In this document: positions 2,268 to 63,966 of the stretch, piece after piece
Position numbering within the stretch: the stretch's first letter is position 1
How the letters are laid out: every line of letters starts with the position of its first letter
Assembly (NCBI GenBank): GCA_965262895.1
Contig: OZ253568.1
Location: 3,086,479-3,150,478, forward strand
From: Chloroflexota bacterium
Lineage (GTDB): Bacteria; Chloroflexota; UBA6077; FW602-bin22; JBCLEL01
Direction: 5' to 3'
Length of the DNA stretch: 64,000 nucleotides
Notes under the pieces: generated by a model
Told to the model about the DNA's origin: nothing
Seen by the model: the letters and a program-made list of their open reading frames with translations, nothing else
Database searches by the model: none
Program-made: the position numbers and the translations under genes

Positions 2268-2760
2268 GTAACTGTTCAGATTTAGGGGTATCTGCTCCGT
2301 ACGGGCGTATTATCGCACCAACGAGTGTCTACCAACGCCGAGGGCGCCCGATCGGCGCATTCCAAGAAAGGGTTGCAAGGGCGAAGCCCTTGCCGGGGGT
2401 GGGGGGTGTCCCCCACAACAAAGATTCCCCCTTCTCGTGGCCAGAGGCTGTCTCACAAGTCCAAAGGGCAGCGATAAGCGCAATTCCGACCTTCGTATTT
2501 GGTCGATTTCATCAATAATGAACCGTTAACTAGGTCATGATGAGAAGGTCCCGCCGTATTTCGTACCTCACACAGAGTTATGAGACGAACTCTGGCCAGG
2601 AGAAGGGGGTCAGGGAGATGAGGTCCACCACCTGGTGGGTTTGACATGGATAGGGTCGGAAATCACCCCTTGACCGCTGACTGAGGTCCTGAATGGCAAC
2701 GCAGCCGATCCAGTTCAGGGACACCGAGGAGAGAAAATACACCCAAATCTGAACTGTTGC
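2268..2760. mobile_element. MITE copy 1 (IS66-like ends, carries nested insertion)
   Basis: Left end GTAACTGTTCAGATTTAGGGG; right end is the reverse complement GCAACAGTTCAGATTTGGGTG. 8-bp target duplication TGAACGTC (2260-2267) / TGAACGCC (2761-2768). Homologous to 12086-12569 and 30302-30583. Confidence 0.75.
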
Positions 2761-6189: not shown

Positions 6190-6910
6190 ACGTAGCCCGT
6201 ATAGATTCAGATTGGTACGAAAGCATGTCCCGGACTCCGATCCGGGATGAATTCCGGCGCCGGCCGGCGACACCAACCACCGTCACCTGAACAACGACTG
6301 CCCAGGGTCGCAAGAGAAATGTAGCGCTGGGGCTTGTCCCCAGCTGGGGAGGGGCCGCACGCGGCAATGATGCCCGAACTCTACTGCCTACCAGCACCCG
6401 CAATTTTCATACCTCAGTGTGCCGGCGCCAGCCGGCGTGAGCGATTGGTACGAAAATGATGCTACGCAGCCTCGAAAGTGCCTGAATGCCACCGCCCCCG
6501 CACTCGTCAGTCCGGTCCTGTCCCCCGATCGTCAGTCCGGTCCCCCAAACGTCATTCCGGCGGAAGCCGGAATCCAGAGGGGAGGGGTGGCACCAACCAC
6601 ACCCAAACAGTTCCAACGACCAGGTCTCATTTTCATACCCTGGTGTGCCGGCACCAGCCGGCATGAACGATTGCGATGAAAGCATGTCCCGGACTCCGAT
6701 CCGGGATAGGCGCTCCAATCAGCCTCGAGGGCGCCTCCCTACACCCTAAACTTGTCGAACCGTGAATTTACAGCCCATTGTGGAGGGAGAAAATGTAGCG
6801 CTGGGGATTGTCCCCTGCCAAGGACGCTCGGCCAGCCGGAAAGGTCTCTTTCCTAGCCCTTGACGGCAGAGGATAGAAGCCTGCCCCGTACCCCGATACG
6901 GGGGTGAGGG
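6190..6910. repeat. Mosaic cluster of REP-like hairpin units (A, D, B, C, B+A, D, E)
   Basis: Unit A near 6215. Unit D near 6313 and 6793. Unit B near 6397 and 6623. Unit C near 6543. Unit A near 6672. Unit E near 6882. The small ORFs on both strands here are translations of these repeats. Confidence 0.75.
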
Positions 6911-7002
6911 CGAACTGCTTCCGGCACCGGATCGCGACGCCAGTGACAGGACGCCGGCGAATGTGTTACAGTTTGGCCCATTGAAAACAGAATACTCGAT
7001 CC

Positions 7003-7163
7003 GGTCAGGTGCCCCGCAACGGGAGAATAGGGAAGGCGGTGTAAGTCCGCCGTGGTTGCGCCACTGTGATCGGGGGTTTTGCCAGTATCCACCCAGCGCT
7101 TGGGCGATAGGGCGGGGACGGCAAGTACTCTAGACCCCCGTAAGCCAGGAGACCTGCCTGACC
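7003..7163 (+). promoter_or_regulatory. cobalamin (B12) riboswitch
   Basis: P1 stem GGTCAGGT...GCCTGACC. Conserved core AATAGGGAAGGCGGTGTAAGTCCGCC...GCGCCACTGT. B12-box AAGCCAGGAGACCTGCC. Lies about 110 nt upstream of the btuC-like gene. Confidence 0.9.
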
Positions 7164-7271
7164 CGGTTGGTAGATCGCTCTTCGCACCAAAGTGGTCGAC
7201 TACCCGGTAAGGCTTGACGATGGCTTACCGACCTCGGACCTCCAGCGAAGATAAGCGGGAGGTCCTTTAGT

Positions 7272-11558: not shown

Positions 11559-11849
11559 GGACTCTCATCCCTTTCATTCTTATGCGATCACAAGCTCTTG
11601 CTCCCTACACGTTTGAGTGAGAGCAAAGACGGTCTGGTGAAGAAATTAGAACATCAACTTCTTCATCCGCAAAAAAAGTGTACACCCGTTGCGGCCGGAA
11701 AACAGGAGATTAGCTGAGTGTTCACAGTCAGCGATTAAGATTCTATTGACAGGCTGGTGTACGCCATCCCGCCGCTCACGTAAGGGACGACGGTCGCCGA
11801 TTCTCAGCCCGCGCAATCGACCCACATCTGAGGCGTACTCCAATGATGG

Positions 11850-12650
11850 TCCGCGAATCCAAGTTGTTTGGGGCGGCGGAATTCGCTCACGTTTAATGCC
11901 AGAACTGAAGCCAGCCTGATGTTCCTTGATTGCTGGTTCCATCTGCGGTGACCACTTGGATCGAGTTGACCGGTCGGCAGCCGATAATTCGGGCATCTAT
12001 CGCATGTGGGTGCCTGCCTCGAGTGCGATGGACTACGATTACCACGCCCATCACCTGGAGATCGTGAGTTTGCCCGCGCTCCTGGGTAAGTGTTCAGATC
12101 TAGGGATACCTGCTCCGTATGGGCGTAATATCGCACCAAAGAGCATCTACCACAGGCGAGGATGTCTGATCGGCGAAAGCCAGGGAAAGGATTGCAAGGC
12201 CGAAGCCCTTGACGGGGGATGTGGGGGTGTCCCCCACAACAAATGTCCCCCTCCTCCTGGCCAGAGGCTGTCTCATAACTCTGTGTGAGGTACGAAATAC
12301 GGCGGGACCTTCTCATCATGACCTAGTTAACGGTTCATTATTGATGAAATCGACCAAATACGAAGGTCGGAATTGCGCTTATCGCTGCCCTTTGGACTTG
12401 TGAGACAGCCTCGGCCAGGAGAAGGGGGACGAGGTCGACCAACTCGTGGAACTGACATCGATTCGTTGGAAATCACCGCTTGAGCGCCGACCGAGGTCCC
12501 AAATGGCGACTCGGCCTTTCCAGTTCACGGGCATCGAGGAGAGAAATACACCCAAATCTGAACCGTTGCGCTCTTGGTGTTATGTTACCCGAATGTCGCA
12601 ATAGGGCAGGTGCCGGCAATCGGGGAATTCAGCGCCAGCGCGTCATCGCG
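11850..12650 (+). pseudogene. Decayed stand-alone copy of the BtuD C-terminal extra domain, split by MITE copy 2
   Basis: GPRIQVVWGGGIRSRLMPELKPA*CSLIAGSICGDHLDRVDRSAADNSGIYRMWVPASSAMDYDYHAHHLEIV aligns to DPRVHVVCGGGTGARLMYELRQAGFSVTVGPLGAGDADRTAADILGIDYVSVPAFSAIDEDAHAQHLEMV. It has an in-frame TGA at 11917-11919. The reading frame resumes after the MITE (LLVLCYPNVAIG ~ FAVLCNLPIGF). Confidence 0.55.
12086..12569. mobile_element. MITE copy 2 (IS66-like ends, carries nested insertion in opposite core orientation)
   Basis: Ends GTAAGTGTTCAGATCT... and ...AAATCTGAACCGTTGC. 8-bp target duplication GCTCCTGG (12078-12085) / GCTCTTGG (12570-12577). Confidence 0.75.
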
Positions 12651-20664: not shown

Positions 20665-20830
20665 AGTGAAAATGGACGGTTCCCGTCGCGCCCGCGAGTC
20701 CTGTCGTTGCTACTTAGAATAGGTCCCCGCCATTCGCTGCGTCATACCTTCCTCCCACGCGGTCTTTCCGGCGAAAGCATGCCCCGTACGCCGATACGGG
20801 GCCGGAATCCAGAAGGAGAGGGGAGAGGCA
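20665..20830. repeat. REP-like hairpin cluster (G, E+C)
   Basis: Contains ATGGACGGTTCCCGTCGCGCCCGC and GAAAGCATGCCCCGTACGCCGATACGGGGCCGGAATCCAGAAGGAGAGGGG. Confidence 0.6.
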
Positions 20831-21092
20831 GGACCGCCATACGACAGCAAGAGACCCGGCGTCCCAGCATACTCATCCTCTTATGTGGCCTTCGCGAGGC
20901 CGTGGTGAACGCCGGCAAAAATCCGGACACGACGTCGAGTGACTGATGAGGACCAATTACACGCGAGCTTAAAGCCCGTGACGGATTTGTTCGTACACTG
21001 ACACACGTGCGCTATTATGGCTGATATTTGCCGCAAGACCGATACTGGTGGACCAGGATGGCGAAGAGGCTGGATCCTGGACGTGAGATACG

Positions 21093-30301: not shown

Positions 30302-30583
30302 GTAAGTATTGAGATTTAGGGGTACCTACTCCGTATGGGCGTAATATCGCACCAATGAGGCTCTATCACAGGCGAAGACGTCTGATCAAGGAAAGCCAGG
30401 ACAGGGTTGCACGGGCGAAGTCCTTGCCGGGGGATGTGAGGGATGAGGTCGACCAGCTCGTGGATTTCGCATCGATAGGTTGGAAGTCACCACTTAATCG
30501 CCGACTGAGGTCCCGAATCGCGACTCGGCTTTTCCGGTGCACGGGCATGGAGGAGACAAATACACCCAAATCTGAACTGTTAC
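30302..30583. mobile_element. MITE copy 3 (basal 282-bp form, no nested insertion)
   Basis: Ends GTAAGTATTGAGATTTAGGGG and ...CACCCAAATCTGAACTGTTAC. Perfect 8-bp target duplication TCACCTAC (30294-30301 and 30584-30591). Confidence 0.8.
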
Positions 30584-34700: not shown

Positions 34701-34772
34701 GGGCCGCTAGCTCAATGGTAGAGCAACGGACTTTTAATCCGCAGGTTCAGGGTTCGATTCCCTGGCGGCCTA
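34701..34772 (+). tRNA. tRNA-Lys (anticodon TTT)
   Basis: Cloverleaf folded by hand: acceptor GGGCCGC/GCGGCCT, D arm GCTC-AATGGTA-GAGC, anticodon loop CTTTTAA, T arm CAGGG-TTCGATT-CCCTG. Confidence 0.9.
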
Positions 34773-52758: not shown

Positions 52759-52994
52759 GGTCTTGCCCTTTGCCTTGCGTCGAGTTGAGTCTACGCTCGC
52801 CTCTCAGGAAACTCAATCCCACATCGTATGAGGCACCACGCGCCGCACGTTCTCGGAAATGCAATTCTCATTTGGAATTGAGGTCCAACTAAGATTGTAC
52901 TATCAGTACTGAACACTCAAGGTCGATACAAGACTCTCCGTCGATTGGACAAAGTCTGTCGATTCTCCGTCCGAGGCGGCCAAACGCTGCCCCT

Positions 52995-53590
52995 ACGCCT
53001 AGCGGCGCGCTTCATTGGGCGCTTTGTTTTGCAAAAAGTACCTCTTAGAGGTGGGTCCCTCCGATCTGATAGAGGCCGGTGGTCTGAGACGATGCCAAAT
53101 CCGGCCGGCTTGCGCTCGTCAAGACAATTTGTTTTGCAAAAAGTACCTCTTAGAGGTGGGCCCCTCCGATCTGATGGAGGCCGGCGGTCTGAGACGATGC
53201 CAAATCCGGCCGGCTTGCGCTCGTCAAGACAATTTGTTTTGCAAAAAGTACCTCTTAGAGGTGGGCCCCTCCGATCTGATAGAGGCCGGTGGTCTGAGAC
53301 GATGCCAAATCCGGCCGGCTTGCGCTCGTCAGGACAATTTGTTTTGCAAAAAGTACCTCTTAGAGGTGGGTCCCTCCGATCTGATGGAGGCCGGTGGTCT
53401 GAGACGATGGCACATCTGGCCGGCTTGCGCTCGTCAAGACAATTTGTTTTGCATTCTTGCCATCGGGAAAGCGGTTCTGCGCAAGTTGATAGAGGCCGGC
53501 GGCCTGAAATGACGTCACCAATTGGCCGGCGTGCGCTTGTCTAGGCGTTTGTTTTGTGTTTTTTCGTATTGGGCCGGCCATCTTCCACGG
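52995..53590. repeat. 105-bp tandem repeat array (4 near-identical units plus about 1.5 degenerate units)
   Basis: The TTTTGCAAAA palindrome recurs with its G at 53031, 53136, 53241, 53346 and 53451 (degenerate), and at 53556 (degenerate), an exact 105-bp period. Units also contain ACCTCTTAGAGGT and CCGGCCGG palindromes. Confidence 0.9.
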
Positions 53591-53712
53591 ACCGATATCA
53601 AGCTGCGCGCCGTAGGTGTGCTGTCGTCAGAGTTGGCACGAATAAGCGAACATACGTACCATCATTATACCGCAGTAAGAGCGATATTGCGCGAACTGTT
53701 GACGGCGGCAGG

Positions 53713-54975
53713 GGTTTTTGATTCTCTAACATCCGTTGTCACCCAAAGGTTGGCGGTGGTCTTGCCTTCCCCCTCCCCTCTGGATTCCTGCCCCCGTATC
53801 GGAGTACGGGGCATGCTTTAGATCGCGGGAATCACCATGGCCTTGCGAAGGCCACAAAAGAGGATGAAAATGGGACGGCGCCGGGTGGTGCAACGCGGGC
53901 GAACTAGCGGCGCGCCCTAGGCGGGGGACAATCCCCCGCGCTACAATCCCCTCTCCCCACCCCTCTGGATTCCGGCCCCGTGTCGGGGTACGGGGCATGC
54001 TTTTGATCGCCGGAATGACGAATCGAGGGTCCGGAGTGACGAAGGGATGCCGCGAATGACCAATGAGAGGCTGCTGGAGCGGTCTATCCCGGATCGGAGT
54101 CCGGGACATGCTTTCATAGCAATCGCTCATGCCGGCTGGCGCCGGCACACCAAGGTATGAAAAGCGGGAGTTGTGGTTTGGTACAGCGAATTGGCACGGT
54201 GGATTCTGCCACGCCCCACCCCAACCCCAGCGGGGGACAAGCCCCCGCGCTACATTTTCTCATTCCGCCATCGGCCATCGGCCATCGGTCTACAATTCGG
54301 CAAGTTTCGCCGGTGGAGAGCCGGCATCGAGGTTGATTGGAGGGCACATCCCGGATCGGAGTCCGGGACATGCTTTCATAGCAATCGCTCATGCCGGCTG
54401 GCGCCGGCACACCAAGGTATGAAAAGCGGGAGTTGTGGTTTGGTACAGCGAATTGGCACGGCGGATTCTGCCACGCCCCACCCCGACTCCAGCGGGGGAC
54501 AAGCCCCCGCGCTACATTTTCTCATTCCGCCATCGGCTATCGGTCTACGATTCGGCACGTTTCGCCCATGGAGAGCCGGCATCGAGGTTGATTGGAGGGC
54601 ACATCCCGGATCGGAGTCCGGGACATGCTTTCGTGCCAATCGCTCATGCCGGCTGGCGCCGGCACACCAAGGTGTGAAAATTGGGTGCATTGGTTGGTGG
54701 GAGAGTTCTAGCGTCATTGCCACAACCCGCACCTCCCCTCTGGATTCCCGCCTTCGCGGGAATGACGAATTGAGGGGCCGGAATGACGAGATCGCGGAAT
54801 GGAGGGGTTCAACGGCGCGCTCGAAAGCGGCGTAGGCGCATTTACGTACGAATGACGACATGCGGTTTGCGGACTATCGAAATGGCCTTGGCGGGTTGAT
54901 TGTTTCGACCAACTGCTTGTCGGCCTAGGAAAATACTCTAGAAGTCCTAAACATTAAAGAATAGAAAAGCCCTGG
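53713..54975. repeat. Composite long repeat A (1263 bp; mosaic of REP units with an internal 262-bp tandem duplication)
   Basis: Collinear with 57480-58415 and in the same orientation. The internal unit starting TCCCGGATCGGAGTCCGGGACATGC recurs at 54087, 54349 and (variant) 54604. Confidence 0.85.
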
Positions 54976-57450: not shown

Positions 57451-57479
57451 TCGAATGGCTTGGGAGAGTGCACACCAGT

Positions 57480-58415
57480 GGTTTTTGATTCTCTAGCATC
57501 CGTTATCACCCAAAGGTTGGCGGTGGTCTTGCCTTCCCCCTCCCCTCTCGATTCCGGCCCCGTATCGGGGTACGGGGCATGCTTTTGATCGCCGGAATCA
57601 CCATGGACCTGAGAGGTCCGCATAAGAGGATGAAAATGGGGCGACGGGTGAGTTTTTTCCATCGTCTGGTGACCTTACCCCTCCCCACCCCTTCTGGATT
57701 CCGGCCTTCGCCGGAATGACGATTGGGGGGCCGGATTGACGAGGGGATGCCGCGAATGACCAATGAGAGGCTACTGGAGCGGTCTATCCCGGATCCTAGT
57801 CCAGGACATGCTTTCATAGCAATCGCTCATCCCGGCTGGCGCCGGCACACCAAGGTATGAAAAGCGGGAGTTGTGGTTTGGTACAGCGAATGAGCACGGC
57901 GGATTGTGCCACGCCCCACCCCGACCCCAGCGGGGGACAAGCCCCCGCGCTACATTTTCTCATTCCGCCATCGACCATCGGTCTACAATTCGGCACGTTT
58001 CGCCGGTGGAGAGCCGGCATCGAGGTTGATTGGAGGGCACATCCCGGATCGTAGTCCGGGACATGCTCTCATAGCAATCGCTCATGCCGGCTGGTGCCGG
58101 CACGCCAAGGTGTGAAAATCGGGTGCATTGGTTGGTGGGAGAGTTCTAGCGTGATTGCCACAACCCGCACCTCCCCTCTGGATTCCCGCCTTCGCGGGAA
58201 TGACGAAAGGGGGGGTGCGGGAATGACGAGATCGCGGAATGGAGGGGTTCGGCGGCGCGCTCGAAAGCGGCGTGGGCGCATTTTCGTACGAATGACGACA
58301 TGCGGTTTGCGGACTATCGAAATGGGCTTTGTAGGTTGACTTTTTCGACCAACTGCTTGTCGGCCTAGGAAAATACTCTAGAAGTCCTAAACATCAAAGA
58401 ATAGAAAAGCCCTGG
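57480..58415. repeat. Composite long repeat B (936 bp), direct repeat of 53713-54975
   Basis: Same unit order and orientation as repeat A, without the 262-bp duplication. The last ~200 bp are near-identical, ending ...CGACCAACTGCTTGTCGGCCTAGGAAAATACTCTAGAAGTCCTAAACAT.AAAGAATAGAAAAGCCCTGG. Confidence 0.85.
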
Positions 58416-60054: not shown

Positions 60055-60130
60055 GGGTGGTTAGCTCAGCCGGCTAGAGCGCCAAGTTCACATCGTGGAG
60101 GTCACTGGTTCGAGTCCAGTATCGCCCACC
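60055..60130 (+). tRNA. tRNA-Val (anticodon CAC)
   Basis: Hand-folded cloverleaf. Anticodon loop TTCACAT. T arm ACTGG-TTCGAGT-CCAGT. One A-G mismatch in the anticodon stem. Confidence 0.85.
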
Positions 60131-63889: not shown

Positions 63890-63966
63890 GGGCGGTTAGC
63901 TCAGCTGGCTAGAGCGCCACGTTGACATCGTGGAGGTCACTGGTTCGAGTCCAGTATCGCCCACCA
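63890..63966 (+). tRNA. tRNA-Val (anticodon GAC), CCA encoded
   Basis: Hand-folded cloverleaf with anticodon loop TTGACAT. The 3' half is identical to the tRNA-Val at 60055. Confidence 0.9.

What the first reader, a model, noticed from the sequence alone, without database searches (positions are those of the whole stretch)
2395..2625. Nested palindromic element whose 125-bp core is 100% identical but inverted between two diverged MITE copies
MITE copies 1 and 2 carry about 210 extra bp at the same internal position; copy 3 lacks them. The insert is bounded by long inverted arms: TCCCCCT.CTC.TGGCCAGAGGCTGTCTCA ... TGAGAC...CTC.GGCCAGGAGAAGGGGG. Between the arms, the 125-bp core 2456-2580 is the exact reverse complement of 12276-12400; I compared them base by base and found no mismatch. 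The surrounding MITE sequence and the outer arms differ by many substitutions and indels. The core also looks AT-richer than its surroundings. The two orientations sit in otherwise collinear hosts. Perfect identity inside diverged flanks points to one of three explanations. One is recent or ongoing DNA inversion between the inverted arms, as in an invertase-type switch. A second is recent independent, site-specific insertion of a small palindromic-ended element in either orientation. The third is gene conversion. The identical 43-aa C-terminus of the ORFs at 2453-2647 (-) and 12209-12403 (+) is a by-product of this identity.
Basis: seen in the sequence. Interest (0 to 1): 0.7.

Follow-up and report, generated by a model that had tools for sequence, protein, structure and literature searches.

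The report
Small transposon inserted into a palindrome
The "flipped" identical core is a 147-bp non-coding mobile element that recently jumped, independently and in opposite directions, into the centre of the same short palindrome carried by two old copies of another small transposon; it is an ordinary, though tidy, case of target-specific transposition and not a DNA switch.

Summary
Window 2456-2580 is the exact reverse complement of 12276-12400, and the exact identity runs 143 bp (2444-2586 vs 12270-12412). The surrounding repeat copies are about 80% identical.

The inversion-switch reading is not supported. The mobile unit, here called E, is 147 bp (2445-2591; 12265-12411). It has imperfect terminal inverted repeats and an 8-bp target-site duplication (CTGGCCAG).

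E sits in the dyad centre of a 28-bp palindrome, CCCCCTTCTC-CTGGCCAG-GAGAAGGGGG.

A genome about 97% identical and syntenic (L020) has precise empty sites at both window loci. A more distant relative has E in a host copy that is empty in the window genome.

Four loci carry non-palindromic duplication variants that are identical as direct repeats. In unbiased samples orientation is 7:6 and is unrelated to host-copy similarity.

E copies are about 99% identical across at least eight assemblies, including a genome only about 80% identical. The transposase that moves E was not found.

In one genome an IS630-family element has in turn hit the same CTAG inside E three times. Verdict: a new member of a known kind, of modest interest.

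The parts
2445..2591 (+). Element E, copy 1: a 147-bp non-coding MITE-like unit, AGGCTGTCTCA...TGAGACGAACT, identical to the family consensus
   Evidence: Boundaries come from the empty orthologous site in L020 and the junction table of 20 copies. It has 0 differences from the consensus.
2437..2444 (.). Left target-site duplication of E copy 1 (GTGGCCAG; one substitution from CTGGCCAG)
2592..2599 (.). Right target-site duplication of E copy 1 (CTGGCCAG)
2427..2436 (.). Left half of the host palindrome (CCCCCTTCTC). It is target DNA, not part of E.
   Evidence: The empty site in L020 reads CCCCCTTCTC CTGGCCAG GAGAAGGGGG.
2600..2609 (.). Right half of the host palindrome (GAGAAGGGGG)
2402..2426 (+). 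Host-subfamily extension (GGGGGTGTCCCCC hairpin plus ACAACAAAGATT). It precedes the palindrome, keeps the same orientation in all copies, and is absent from copy 3.
2268..2760 (+). Host MITE copy 1 (termini GTAA...TTGC), flanked by an 8-bp duplication TGAACGTC/TGAACGCC at 2260-2267 and 2761-2768
12265..12411 (-). Element E, copy 2: 147 bp, inverted relative to copy 1. Positions 143-145 are changed GAA>AGC, which makes its two terminal repeats perfectly complementary.
12257..12264 (.). Left target-site duplication of E copy 2 (CTGGCCAG)
12412..12418 (.). Right target-site duplication of E copy 2 (CGGCCAG; one base lost)
12247..12256 (.). Left half of the host palindrome at copy 2 (CCCCCTCCTC)
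12419..12428 (.). Right half of the host palindrome at copy 2 (GAGAAGGGGG)
12086..12569 (+). Host MITE copy 2, with an 8-bp duplication GCTCCTGG/GCTCTTGG
30302..30583 (+). Host MITE copy 3. It belongs to the subfamily without the extension and palindrome, so it offers no target for E. Its 8-bp duplication TCACCTAC is perfect.

Best explanation
The shared core is the body of a 147-bp non-autonomous transposable element, here called E. E has imperfect terminal inverted repeats (AGGCTGTCTCAcAAgTC / AGttcGTCTCAtAAcTC) and no coding capacity.

A transposase supplied in trans, not identified here, inserts E by staggered cuts 8 bp apart. The cuts fall at the dyad centre of a 28-bp palindrome, CCCCCTTCTC-CTGGCCAG-GAGAAGGGGG. 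That palindrome is an internal module of one subfamily of an older MITE of about 320 bp.

Repair of the stagger duplicates CTGGCCAG. Because this 8-mer is itself palindromic and sits between the two palindrome halves, each filled site appears to have inverted arms of about 30 bp. The target is two-fold symmetric, so E enters in either orientation with equal probability.

Copies 1 and 2 in the window are two separate, recent insertions from the same nearly uniform source family. They went into host copies that had already diverged by about 20%. This explains perfect identity, opposite orientation and collinear diverged flanks together.

Shown: the element boundaries, the duplication, the empty sites, the occupancy polymorphism and the random orientation. 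Inferred: DDE-type chemistry, trans mobilisation, and recognition of the palindrome halves by the transposase.
For: (1) Empty orthologous sites. L020 is about 97% identical and syntenic over 21 kb. At the copy-1 site it reads ...AAAGATT CCCCCTTCTC CTGGCCAG GAGAAGGGGG TCAGGGAGATGAGG, which is the window sequence minus E and one CTGGCCAG. The copy-2 site is empty in the same way. The outgroup L021 (about 80% identical) is also empty at copy 1.

(2) Reciprocal polymorphism. A third host copy 2 kb upstream of the window is empty in L001 and L020 but carries E in L021.

(3) Duplication variants that are not palindromic appear on both sides as direct repeats: CTGACCAG/CTGACCAG (L013), CTAGCCAG/CTAGCCAG (L016-18), TGGTCAG (L008) and CTGGCGAG (L011).

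(4) One copy lies outside the host MITE (L019). Its E is 147/147 identical to the consensus, while its 'arms' are strongly diverged (CCCCCTTTCC / GGAGAAGGTTGGGG). The outer arms are therefore target DNA and not part of the element.

(5) All 11 copies found by DNA search in the OZ244845.1 chromosome occupy the same site of the host MITE, 6 in one orientation and 5 in the other. With the window the count is 7:6. Orientation is interspersed on the host-flank similarity tree.

(6) E copies average 99.0% pairwise identity, and 10 of 19 equal the consensus. Host flanks average 79%.

[quoted passage not shown] It also fits IS elements that split REP palindromes (PMC1525189).
Against: No autonomous element with E's termini was found in about 390 kb of related sequence, nor in the viral or JGI metagenome collections. 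The enzyme and its family therefore remain unknown.

The copy outside the host MITE has a 5-bp flanking repeat (CTCAG), not 8 bp. A fixed-stagger transposase does not predict this.

At one orthologous pair (L011/L012, 96-97% identical flanks) E lies in opposite orientations. This requires either two independent hits on the same site or an in-place flip.

An 'empty' site could in principle be a precise excision or slippage product. That would still mean E is mobile.

Some filled copies in other genomes sit in host copies 95-96% alike. These may have spread as passengers of the host MITE.
Confidence: 0.85

Rival explanations
1. E is an invertible DNA segment. A site-specific invertase, or homologous recombination between the 30-bp inverted arms, flips the core in place, and the two window loci are caught in opposite states.
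For: The inverted arms are long and pair well. One orthologous pair of loci, in genomes with 96-97% identical flanks (L011 vs L012), has E in opposite orientations.
Against: Both window loci are simply empty in the 97% relative, so their states arose by insertion and not by flipping.

In L012 the non-palindromic left duplication CTGGCGAG is not inverted relative to L011. This rules out crossover in the outer arms and leaves only a 4-nt window at the exact element boundary.

No recombinase gene lies from 7 kb upstream of the window to window 13800. No promoter-like or terminator-like site was found in or around E. The arms are target palindrome plus duplication.
Confidence: 0.05
2. The nested segment is as old as the host copies, and gene conversion among copies keeps it identical.
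For: Copy 2 shows a cluster of three adjacent changes (GAA>AGC) that make one terminal repeat the exact complement of the other. The upstream palindrome has a symmetric CCTCC/GGAGG change. Both indicate templated correction within palindromes.
Against: The orthologous sites in the sister genome lack E altogether. Conversion would have to stop exactly at the E boundaries in more than 20 copies and work equally on both orientations. E is also 98-100% identical between genomes only about 80% identical, where intragenomic conversion cannot act.
Confidence: 0.04
3. E reached its positions as a passenger. The host MITE transposed with E already inside, so the copies are not independent E insertions.
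For: Some host copies in other genomes are 95-96% identical in their flanks and share orientation and duplication sequence, for example L006 and L009a. L016 and L018 share the variant duplication CTAGCCAG.
Against: This cannot apply to the window copies, because their host MITEs are present and E-free in L020. It also cannot produce two orientations within one host frame.
Confidence: 0.04
4. An assembly artefact flipped or collapsed a repeat.
For: Palindromic repeats are error-prone in assemblies.
Against: Two assemblies agree. The same architecture, with intact duplications, recurs in more than 20 copies from at least eight assemblies.
Confidence: 0.02

Closest known systems
IS elements that insert specifically into REP / palindromic units (ISPpu9, ISPpu10, ISPsy8, ISPa11, IS1397, ISKpn1; Tobes & Pareja 2006, PMC1525189)
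   Same: The element splits a repeated extragenic palindrome at a fixed position. Removing it reconstitutes the palindrome. Occupancy of the available sites is very high.
   Different: E is a 147-bp non-coding derivative and not an autonomous IS. Its target palindrome lies inside another MITE. Several REP-targeting IS belong to IS110, which makes no TIR/TSD signature, whereas E makes a clean 8-bp duplication.
[quoted passage not shown]
   Same: The duplication is centred in a two-fold symmetric target motif. Both orientations occur at about equal frequency. There is ambiguity between TIR and target sequence at the junctions.
   Different: The target here is far more specific: a 28-bp near-perfect palindrome, with essentially one site type in use. 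One copy has a 5-bp flanking repeat where 8 bp is expected.
Bacterial MITEs and nested MITEs (my own knowledge: Correia/NEMIS, RUP, Nezha, Chunjie)
   Same: Small size, TIRs, a TSD, no ORF, many near-identical intergenic copies, and insertion into other repeats.
   Different: Nesting is site-exact and has three layers: host MITE, then E, then an IS630-family IS at one CTAG within E.
Invertons / invertase switches (fimS, Hin, Bacteroides invertible promoters; my own knowledge)
   Same: A short segment bounded by inverted repeats is found in two orientations.
   Different: There is no adjacent recombinase and no promoter signal. The sites are empty in close relatives. Direct target duplications are present. 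The inverted repeats are mostly target DNA.

Membership tests
MITE (non-autonomous TIR transposon) | Terminal inverted repeats at the element ends | tested here: met
   AGGCTGTCTCAcAAgTC vs the reverse complement AGttcGTCTCAtAAcTC. The termini are constant in 20 copies.
MITE (non-autonomous TIR transposon) | Target-site duplication of defined length flanking each copy | tested here: met
   8 bp in all copies inside the host MITE, including four non-palindromic variants present as direct repeats. The one exception is a 5-bp repeat at L019.
MITE (non-autonomous TIR transposon) | Presence/absence polymorphism with precise empty sites | tested here: met
   L020 is empty at both window loci. L021 is filled where L001 and L020 are empty.
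MITE (non-autonomous TIR transposon) | Too small to encode a transposase; multicopy and homogeneous | tested here: met
   147 bp, with only short chance ORFs. There are 11 copies in one chromosome, at 99.0% mean identity.
MITE (non-autonomous TIR transposon) | An autonomous partner with matching termini | tested here: inconclusive
   None was found in about 390 kb of loci or in the viral and JGI scans. Whole genomes could not be scanned a second time.
Palindrome (REP-like)-targeting insertion | Removing the element and one duplication restores an uninterrupted palindrome that also exists unoccupied | tested here: met
   Unoccupied palindromes are seen at L001:5357, at three sites in L020 and at the L021 copy-1 site.
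Invertase-type DNA switch (inverton) | Both orientations at one locus within a population | not testable with these tools
   No reads are available. Two assemblies show the same orientation.
Invertase-type DNA switch (inverton) | The cassette is a fixed feature of the locus, bounded by recombination-site inverted repeats | tested here: not met
   The locus is empty in a 97% relative. The arms are target palindrome plus direct duplication.
Invertase-type DNA switch (inverton) | A cognate serine or tyrosine recombinase nearby | tested here: not met
   No recombinase Pfam family appears among the genes from 7 kb upstream of the window to window 13800. The rest of the window was not screened.
Invertase-type DNA switch (inverton) | An orientation-dependent promoter or other regulatory signal inside | tested here: not met
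   0 sigma-70-like promoters and 0 terminators in 2100-2900. The core is not structured. There is no Rfam match.
IS630 family (the IS found inside E in OZ244845.1) | DDE_3 transposase with N-terminal HTH; TA duplication within CTAG; TIRs | tested here: met
   DDE_3 at 1.9e-23 and HTH_32 at 5e-17. The junction is CTA|GTGTCCTGTCTC...GAGACAGGACAC|TAG at three sites. The CTAG/TA rule is from PMC2577343, Table 1.

The most novel reading that the evidence does not exclude
E's unknown transposase may position its two cuts by reading the two palindrome half-sites (CCCCCTTCTC) and not by a fixed stagger. The duplication would then equal the spacer: 8 bp at CTGGCCAG sites and 5 bp at the CTCAG site in L019. 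That would be a half-site-guided, almost single-site-specific integration system.

Related open points: E is 98-100% identical over its full 147 bp between genomes only about 80% identical. One orthologous locus has E in opposite orientations. Together these leave room for recent horizontal spread among co-resident Chloroflexota, for sequence constraint beyond the termini, or for transposase-mediated flipping in place.
Probability: 0.12. Interest if true: 0.55.

Novelty: new member of a known kind. Interest (0 to 1): 0.3.

Why it matters
The finding removes a candidate phase-variation switch. What looked like an invertible cassette is a transposon in a symmetric target, and long "inverted arms" can be an illusion created by a split palindrome plus a palindromic duplication.

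It also supplies a clean natural data set for target-site selection:
- precise empty and filled sites between strains;
- a roughly 1:1 orientation ratio;
- three nested layers, each with its own exact target.

The active, highly site-specific E element is polymorphic within a species at 97% identity. It could therefore serve as a strain marker in these uncultivated Chloroflexota.

It also points to a transposase with unusually narrow target choice that could be worth finding. On a practical level, E generates spurious short "genes" in public protein collections.

Tried and rejected
- Rfam, at gathering threshold on the whole window and at E-value threshold on 2200-2800: nothing relevant.
- Promoter and terminator scan of 2100-2900: none.
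- Folding. The hairpin signal comes only from the arms; the core alone is unremarkable on both strands. Host copy 3 as a structured RNA gave z = -0.56, so I dropped the idea that the host repeat is an RNA gene, although it does have swappable hairpin modules.
- JGI metagenome scans with the host extension 20-mer and with the E left end: 0 hits each.
- IMG/VR scans with the E terminus and the core 22-mer: 0 hits.
- Search for an autonomous element with E-like termini in all fetched loci: only E copies were found.
- Mobilisation of E by the IS630-family element found inside it. The two TIRs share CTGTCTCnnAAGT. I rejected this because E makes an 8-bp duplication with no TA, whereas the IS makes TA in CTAG.
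- Alternative parsings of the junctions that would give one constant duplication length for both L019 and the host sites: none works, because the lengths differ by 3 in every register.
- Treating GGGGGATG on both sides of the whole 207-bp block as a duplication: rejected, because both copies are already present in empty copy 3.
- Outer-arm inversion for the L011/L012 pair: rejected, because the non-palindromic left duplication is not flipped.

Full report
**1. Checking the observation**

Window 2456-2580 is the exact reverse complement of 12276-12400. The exact match extends to 143 bp, 2444-2586 against 12270-12412.

Three copies of a repeat of about 280-490 bp lie at 2268-2760, 12086-12569 and 30302-30583. 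Copies 1 and 2 carry about 207 extra bp at the same internal point, and copy 3 lacks them.

Outside the insert, copies 1 and 2 match at 102/126 and 108/137 aligned positions. A 143-bp perfect match is therefore not compatible with equal age (about 0.8^143).

The core has 45.6% GC against 57.5% for the window.

A second public assembly of the same organism (L001, ENA ERZ25068819 contig_10, 99.97% identical over 13.8 kb) has the same orientation at both loci.

**2. More copies**

A 22-mer from the core occurs in only one genome of the GTDB species-representative collection. It is there 11 times, in the 3.88-Mb chromosome OZ244845.1 of an uncultivated Chloroflexota bacterium.

None of these loci is orthologous to the window, so the window comes from a different genome.

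All 11 sit at the same internal position of the same host repeat. Six have the orientation of window copy 1 (A) and five that of copy 2 (B).

The arm next to the CAAGTCC end of the core always reads ...GAGGCTGTCTCA, and the arm at the other end always reads TGAGACGAACTC.... The inner arms therefore travel with the core.

A protein search with the chance ORF that crosses the core found 12 clusters of spurious "genes". Their contigs gave further copies from at least six more assemblies, with contigs of 3.82, 3.62, 3.38, 2.5, 2.15 and 0.45 Mb.

**3. The real boundaries**

Two kb upstream of the window, in the same genome, is a fourth host copy (L001:5196-5516). It has the left extension but no core. 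It reads ...ACAACAAAGAT CCTCCTTCTT CTGGCCAG GAGAAGGAGG CCAGGGGGATGAGG..., which is an uninterrupted 28-bp palindrome.

Filled copies read CCCCCTTCTC [CTGGCCAG] AGGCTGTCTCA-125 bp-TGAGACGAACT [CTGGCCAG] GAGAAGGGGG.

So the mobile unit, which I call E, is 147 bp: window 2445-2591, and 12265-12411 inverted. It is flanked by an 8-bp duplication, and the outer 10 bp of each "arm" are the two halves of a host palindrome.

CTGGCCAG is itself palindromic. The direct duplication therefore also reads as an inverted repeat, which is why the arms look about 30 bp long.

Four loci settle this point. Where the 8-mer is a non-palindromic variant, it is the same on both sides as a direct repeat:
- L013: CTGACCAG/CTGACCAG
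- L016-18: CTAGCCAG/CTAGCCAG
- L008: TGGTCAG
- L011: CTGGCGAG

One copy (L019) lies outside the host repeat. Its E is identical to the consensus at 147/147 positions, while its flanks are only a loose relative of the palindrome (CCCCCTTTCC CTCAG | E | CTCAG GGAGAAGGTTGGGG). This again shows that the outer arms are target DNA and not part of the element.

**4. Presence/absence at the window's own loci**

A search with the neighbouring 2-hydroxyacid dehydrogenase, followed by contig look-ups, gave three syntenic relatives:
- L020, about 97% nucleotide identity
- L021, about 80%
- L022, about 79%

In L020 all three host copies are present and all three are E-free. The copy-1 site reads exactly as the window minus E and one CTGGCCAG, and the copy-2 site is likewise empty.

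L021 is also empty at copy 1, but it carries E (orientation B) in the upstream host copy that is empty in L001 and L020.

L022 lacks the host repeat at these positions. It shows single copies of the 8-mers that flank the host repeat elsewhere.

The order of events is therefore:
- old insertions of the host repeat, shared by genomes about 80% identical;
- much later insertions of E, which are polymorphic within a species.

The two window copies are independent gains.

**5. Population properties**

Nineteen full-length E copies differ on average at 1.46 of 147 positions, and ten equal the consensus. Host flanks average 79% identity.

In samples not biased by ORF calling, orientation is 7 A to 6 B. 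A and B copies are interspersed when host flanks are clustered.

The core has no unusual fold on either strand, no promoter-like or terminator-like site and no Rfam match.

No recombinase gene lies between 7 kb upstream of the window and window 13800.

**6. Mechanism**

[quoted passage not shown] In that model a multimeric transposase engages a two-fold symmetric target and cuts the two strands 8 bp apart around the dyad. The element can enter either way round, with equal frequency (Linheiro & Bergman 2008, PMC2577343).

The extreme site choice resembles IS elements that split REP palindromes, where the flanking fragments rebuild a perfect REP (Tobes & Pareja 2006, PMC1525189).

Shown here:
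- the element limits
- the duplication
- the empty sites
- the occupancy polymorphism
- the random orientation
- the youth of E relative to its host

Inferred:
- DDE-type chemistry
- supply of the enzyme in trans
- recognition of the CCCCCTTCTC half-sites

The enzyme was not found. From my own knowledge, an 8-bp duplication occurs in several IS families (IS66, ISL3, IS1595, IS6, IS256), so no family can be assigned.

**7. What does not fit neatly**

(a) L019 has a 5-bp flanking repeat, not 8 bp. No register of the junctions gives one constant length. Either the cuts are set by the half-sites, so that the duplication equals the spacer, or 3 bp were lost symmetrically.

(b) L011 (OZ244845.1) and L012 (ERZ26167216) are orthologous, with 96-97% identical flanks, yet carry E in opposite orientations. 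The non-palindromic left duplication is not flipped in L012. This excludes recombination in the outer arms. What remains is two independent hits on a near-saturated hot spot, or a flip exactly at E's ends.

(c) E differs at only 3/147 positions in a genome whose orthologous DNA is about 80% identical. This points to recent horizontal spread or to constraint along its length.

(d) Some host copies in other genomes are 95-96% alike, so a few filled copies may be passengers of host-repeat transposition.

**8. Rivals**

In-place inversion, gene conversion, passenger spread and assembly error are each addressed in the rival table of this report. None explains the empty orthologous sites at both window loci.

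Templated correction within the palindrome does occur on a small scale. In copy 2, three adjacent bases of one terminal repeat (GAA>AGC) became the exact complement of the other. The upstream palindrome carries a symmetric CCTCC/GGAGG change.

**9. Verdict**

E is a previously undescribed member of a known kind: a MITE with a palindromic, REP-like target. It is notable for its single-site specificity and for a three-layer nesting, made up of the host MITE (8-bp duplication, termini 5'-GTAA), then E, then an IS630-family IS at one CTAG in E.

Interest is modest.

Noticed in passing
window 2268-2760, 12086-12569, 30302-30583; about 25 copies in L001-L021: The host repeat is itself a genuine MITE. 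Its termini begin 5'-GTAA, it has long TIRs (GTAAGTGTTCAGATTTAGGGGTA), and it has 8-bp target duplications matching 7-8/8 in nearly every copy. It is absent from the syntenic sites of L022. From memory, GTAA ends plus an 8-bp duplication recall the IS66 family; this was not tested.
   Followed up: partly
L005:5471-6635, L006:6372-7536, L011:4726-5890 (OZ244845.1): A 1165-bp IS630-family element (DDE_3 plus HTH) with TIR GTGTCCTGTCTCTGAAG is inserted at the same TA of the single CTAG inside E in 3 of 11 copies. It occurs in both orientations, with a TA duplication. Its TIR shares CTGTCTCnnAAGT with E's TIR.
   Followed up: partly
L019:10179-10341 (ERZ26167216, 3.82-Mb contig): This is the only E copy found outside the host MITE. 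It sits in a looser C-rich palindrome with a 5-bp flanking repeat (CTCAG), not 8 bp. Its flank also contains ACAACAAG...AAAT CCCCC, resembling the host extension, so the extension-palindrome module may be a separate REP-like unit.
   Followed up: partly
L011:4458-6137 vs L012:9945-10437: These are orthologous host copies in two genomes with 96-97% identical flanks. They carry E in opposite orientations. They also differ by the IS630 insertion, by a 22-bp indel (TCGAAGACTACGCAAGGCGAGG) just right of the palindrome, and by one base of the right duplication.
   Followed up: partly
window 12409-12411 region (E positions 143-145); L001:5354-5381 and L020 upstream copy: There are signs of quasipalindrome correction. 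In copy 2, three adjacent changes make the right TIR the perfect complement of the left. In the empty upstream palindrome there is a symmetric CCTCC...GGAGG change.
   Followed up: no
host copies in L003b, L004, L005, L006, L009a, L010 (alignment): The host MITE has interchangeable small hairpin modules at two positions. AATA is replaced by CCGCCTAGGCGG, and GAAGCCCTTG is replaced by ATCCGCCTCAGGCGGAT. This suggests further tiny palindromic insertions or stem swaps.
   Followed up: no
window 2453-2647 (-), 12209-12403 (+), 11804-12319 (-): Chance ORFs across E and the host MITE are called as genes in public assemblies. There are 12 protein clusters of 68-111 aa, none with a Pfam domain.
   Followed up: yes
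L020:10800-13340 vs L001: A 2.5-kb tract is only 77-89% identical in an otherwise 96-98% identical syntenic region. It looks like an imported recombination tract and starts about 0.9 kb right of host copy 1.
   Followed up: no
window 52918-53547; 53709-54975 and 57476-58415; 644-987, 6210-6841, 20774-20908: The window is rich in other repeats. These include a 105-bp tandem array (5 units) and several families of G+C-rich intergenic repeats with hairpins (e.g. ATCCCGGATCGGAGTCCGGGACATGCTTTC, CCTCTGGATTCCGGCC), which are also seen in the OZ244845.1 loci.
   Followed up: no
window 6990-7175; 34701-34772; 60055-60128 and 63890-63963: There is a cobalamin riboswitch upstream of an ABC/FecCD-type transport cluster. 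There are also three tRNA genes, two of which lie in a 136-bp direct repeat 3.8 kb apart.
   Followed up: no
L007:4403-4911: This host copy has a different insertion of about 170 bp in its left arm. At the E site it carries a remnant (ACCCCTTCTCTTGGCCAGG directly joined to GGGATGAGG): an empty or decayed palindrome lacking its right half.
   Followed up: no
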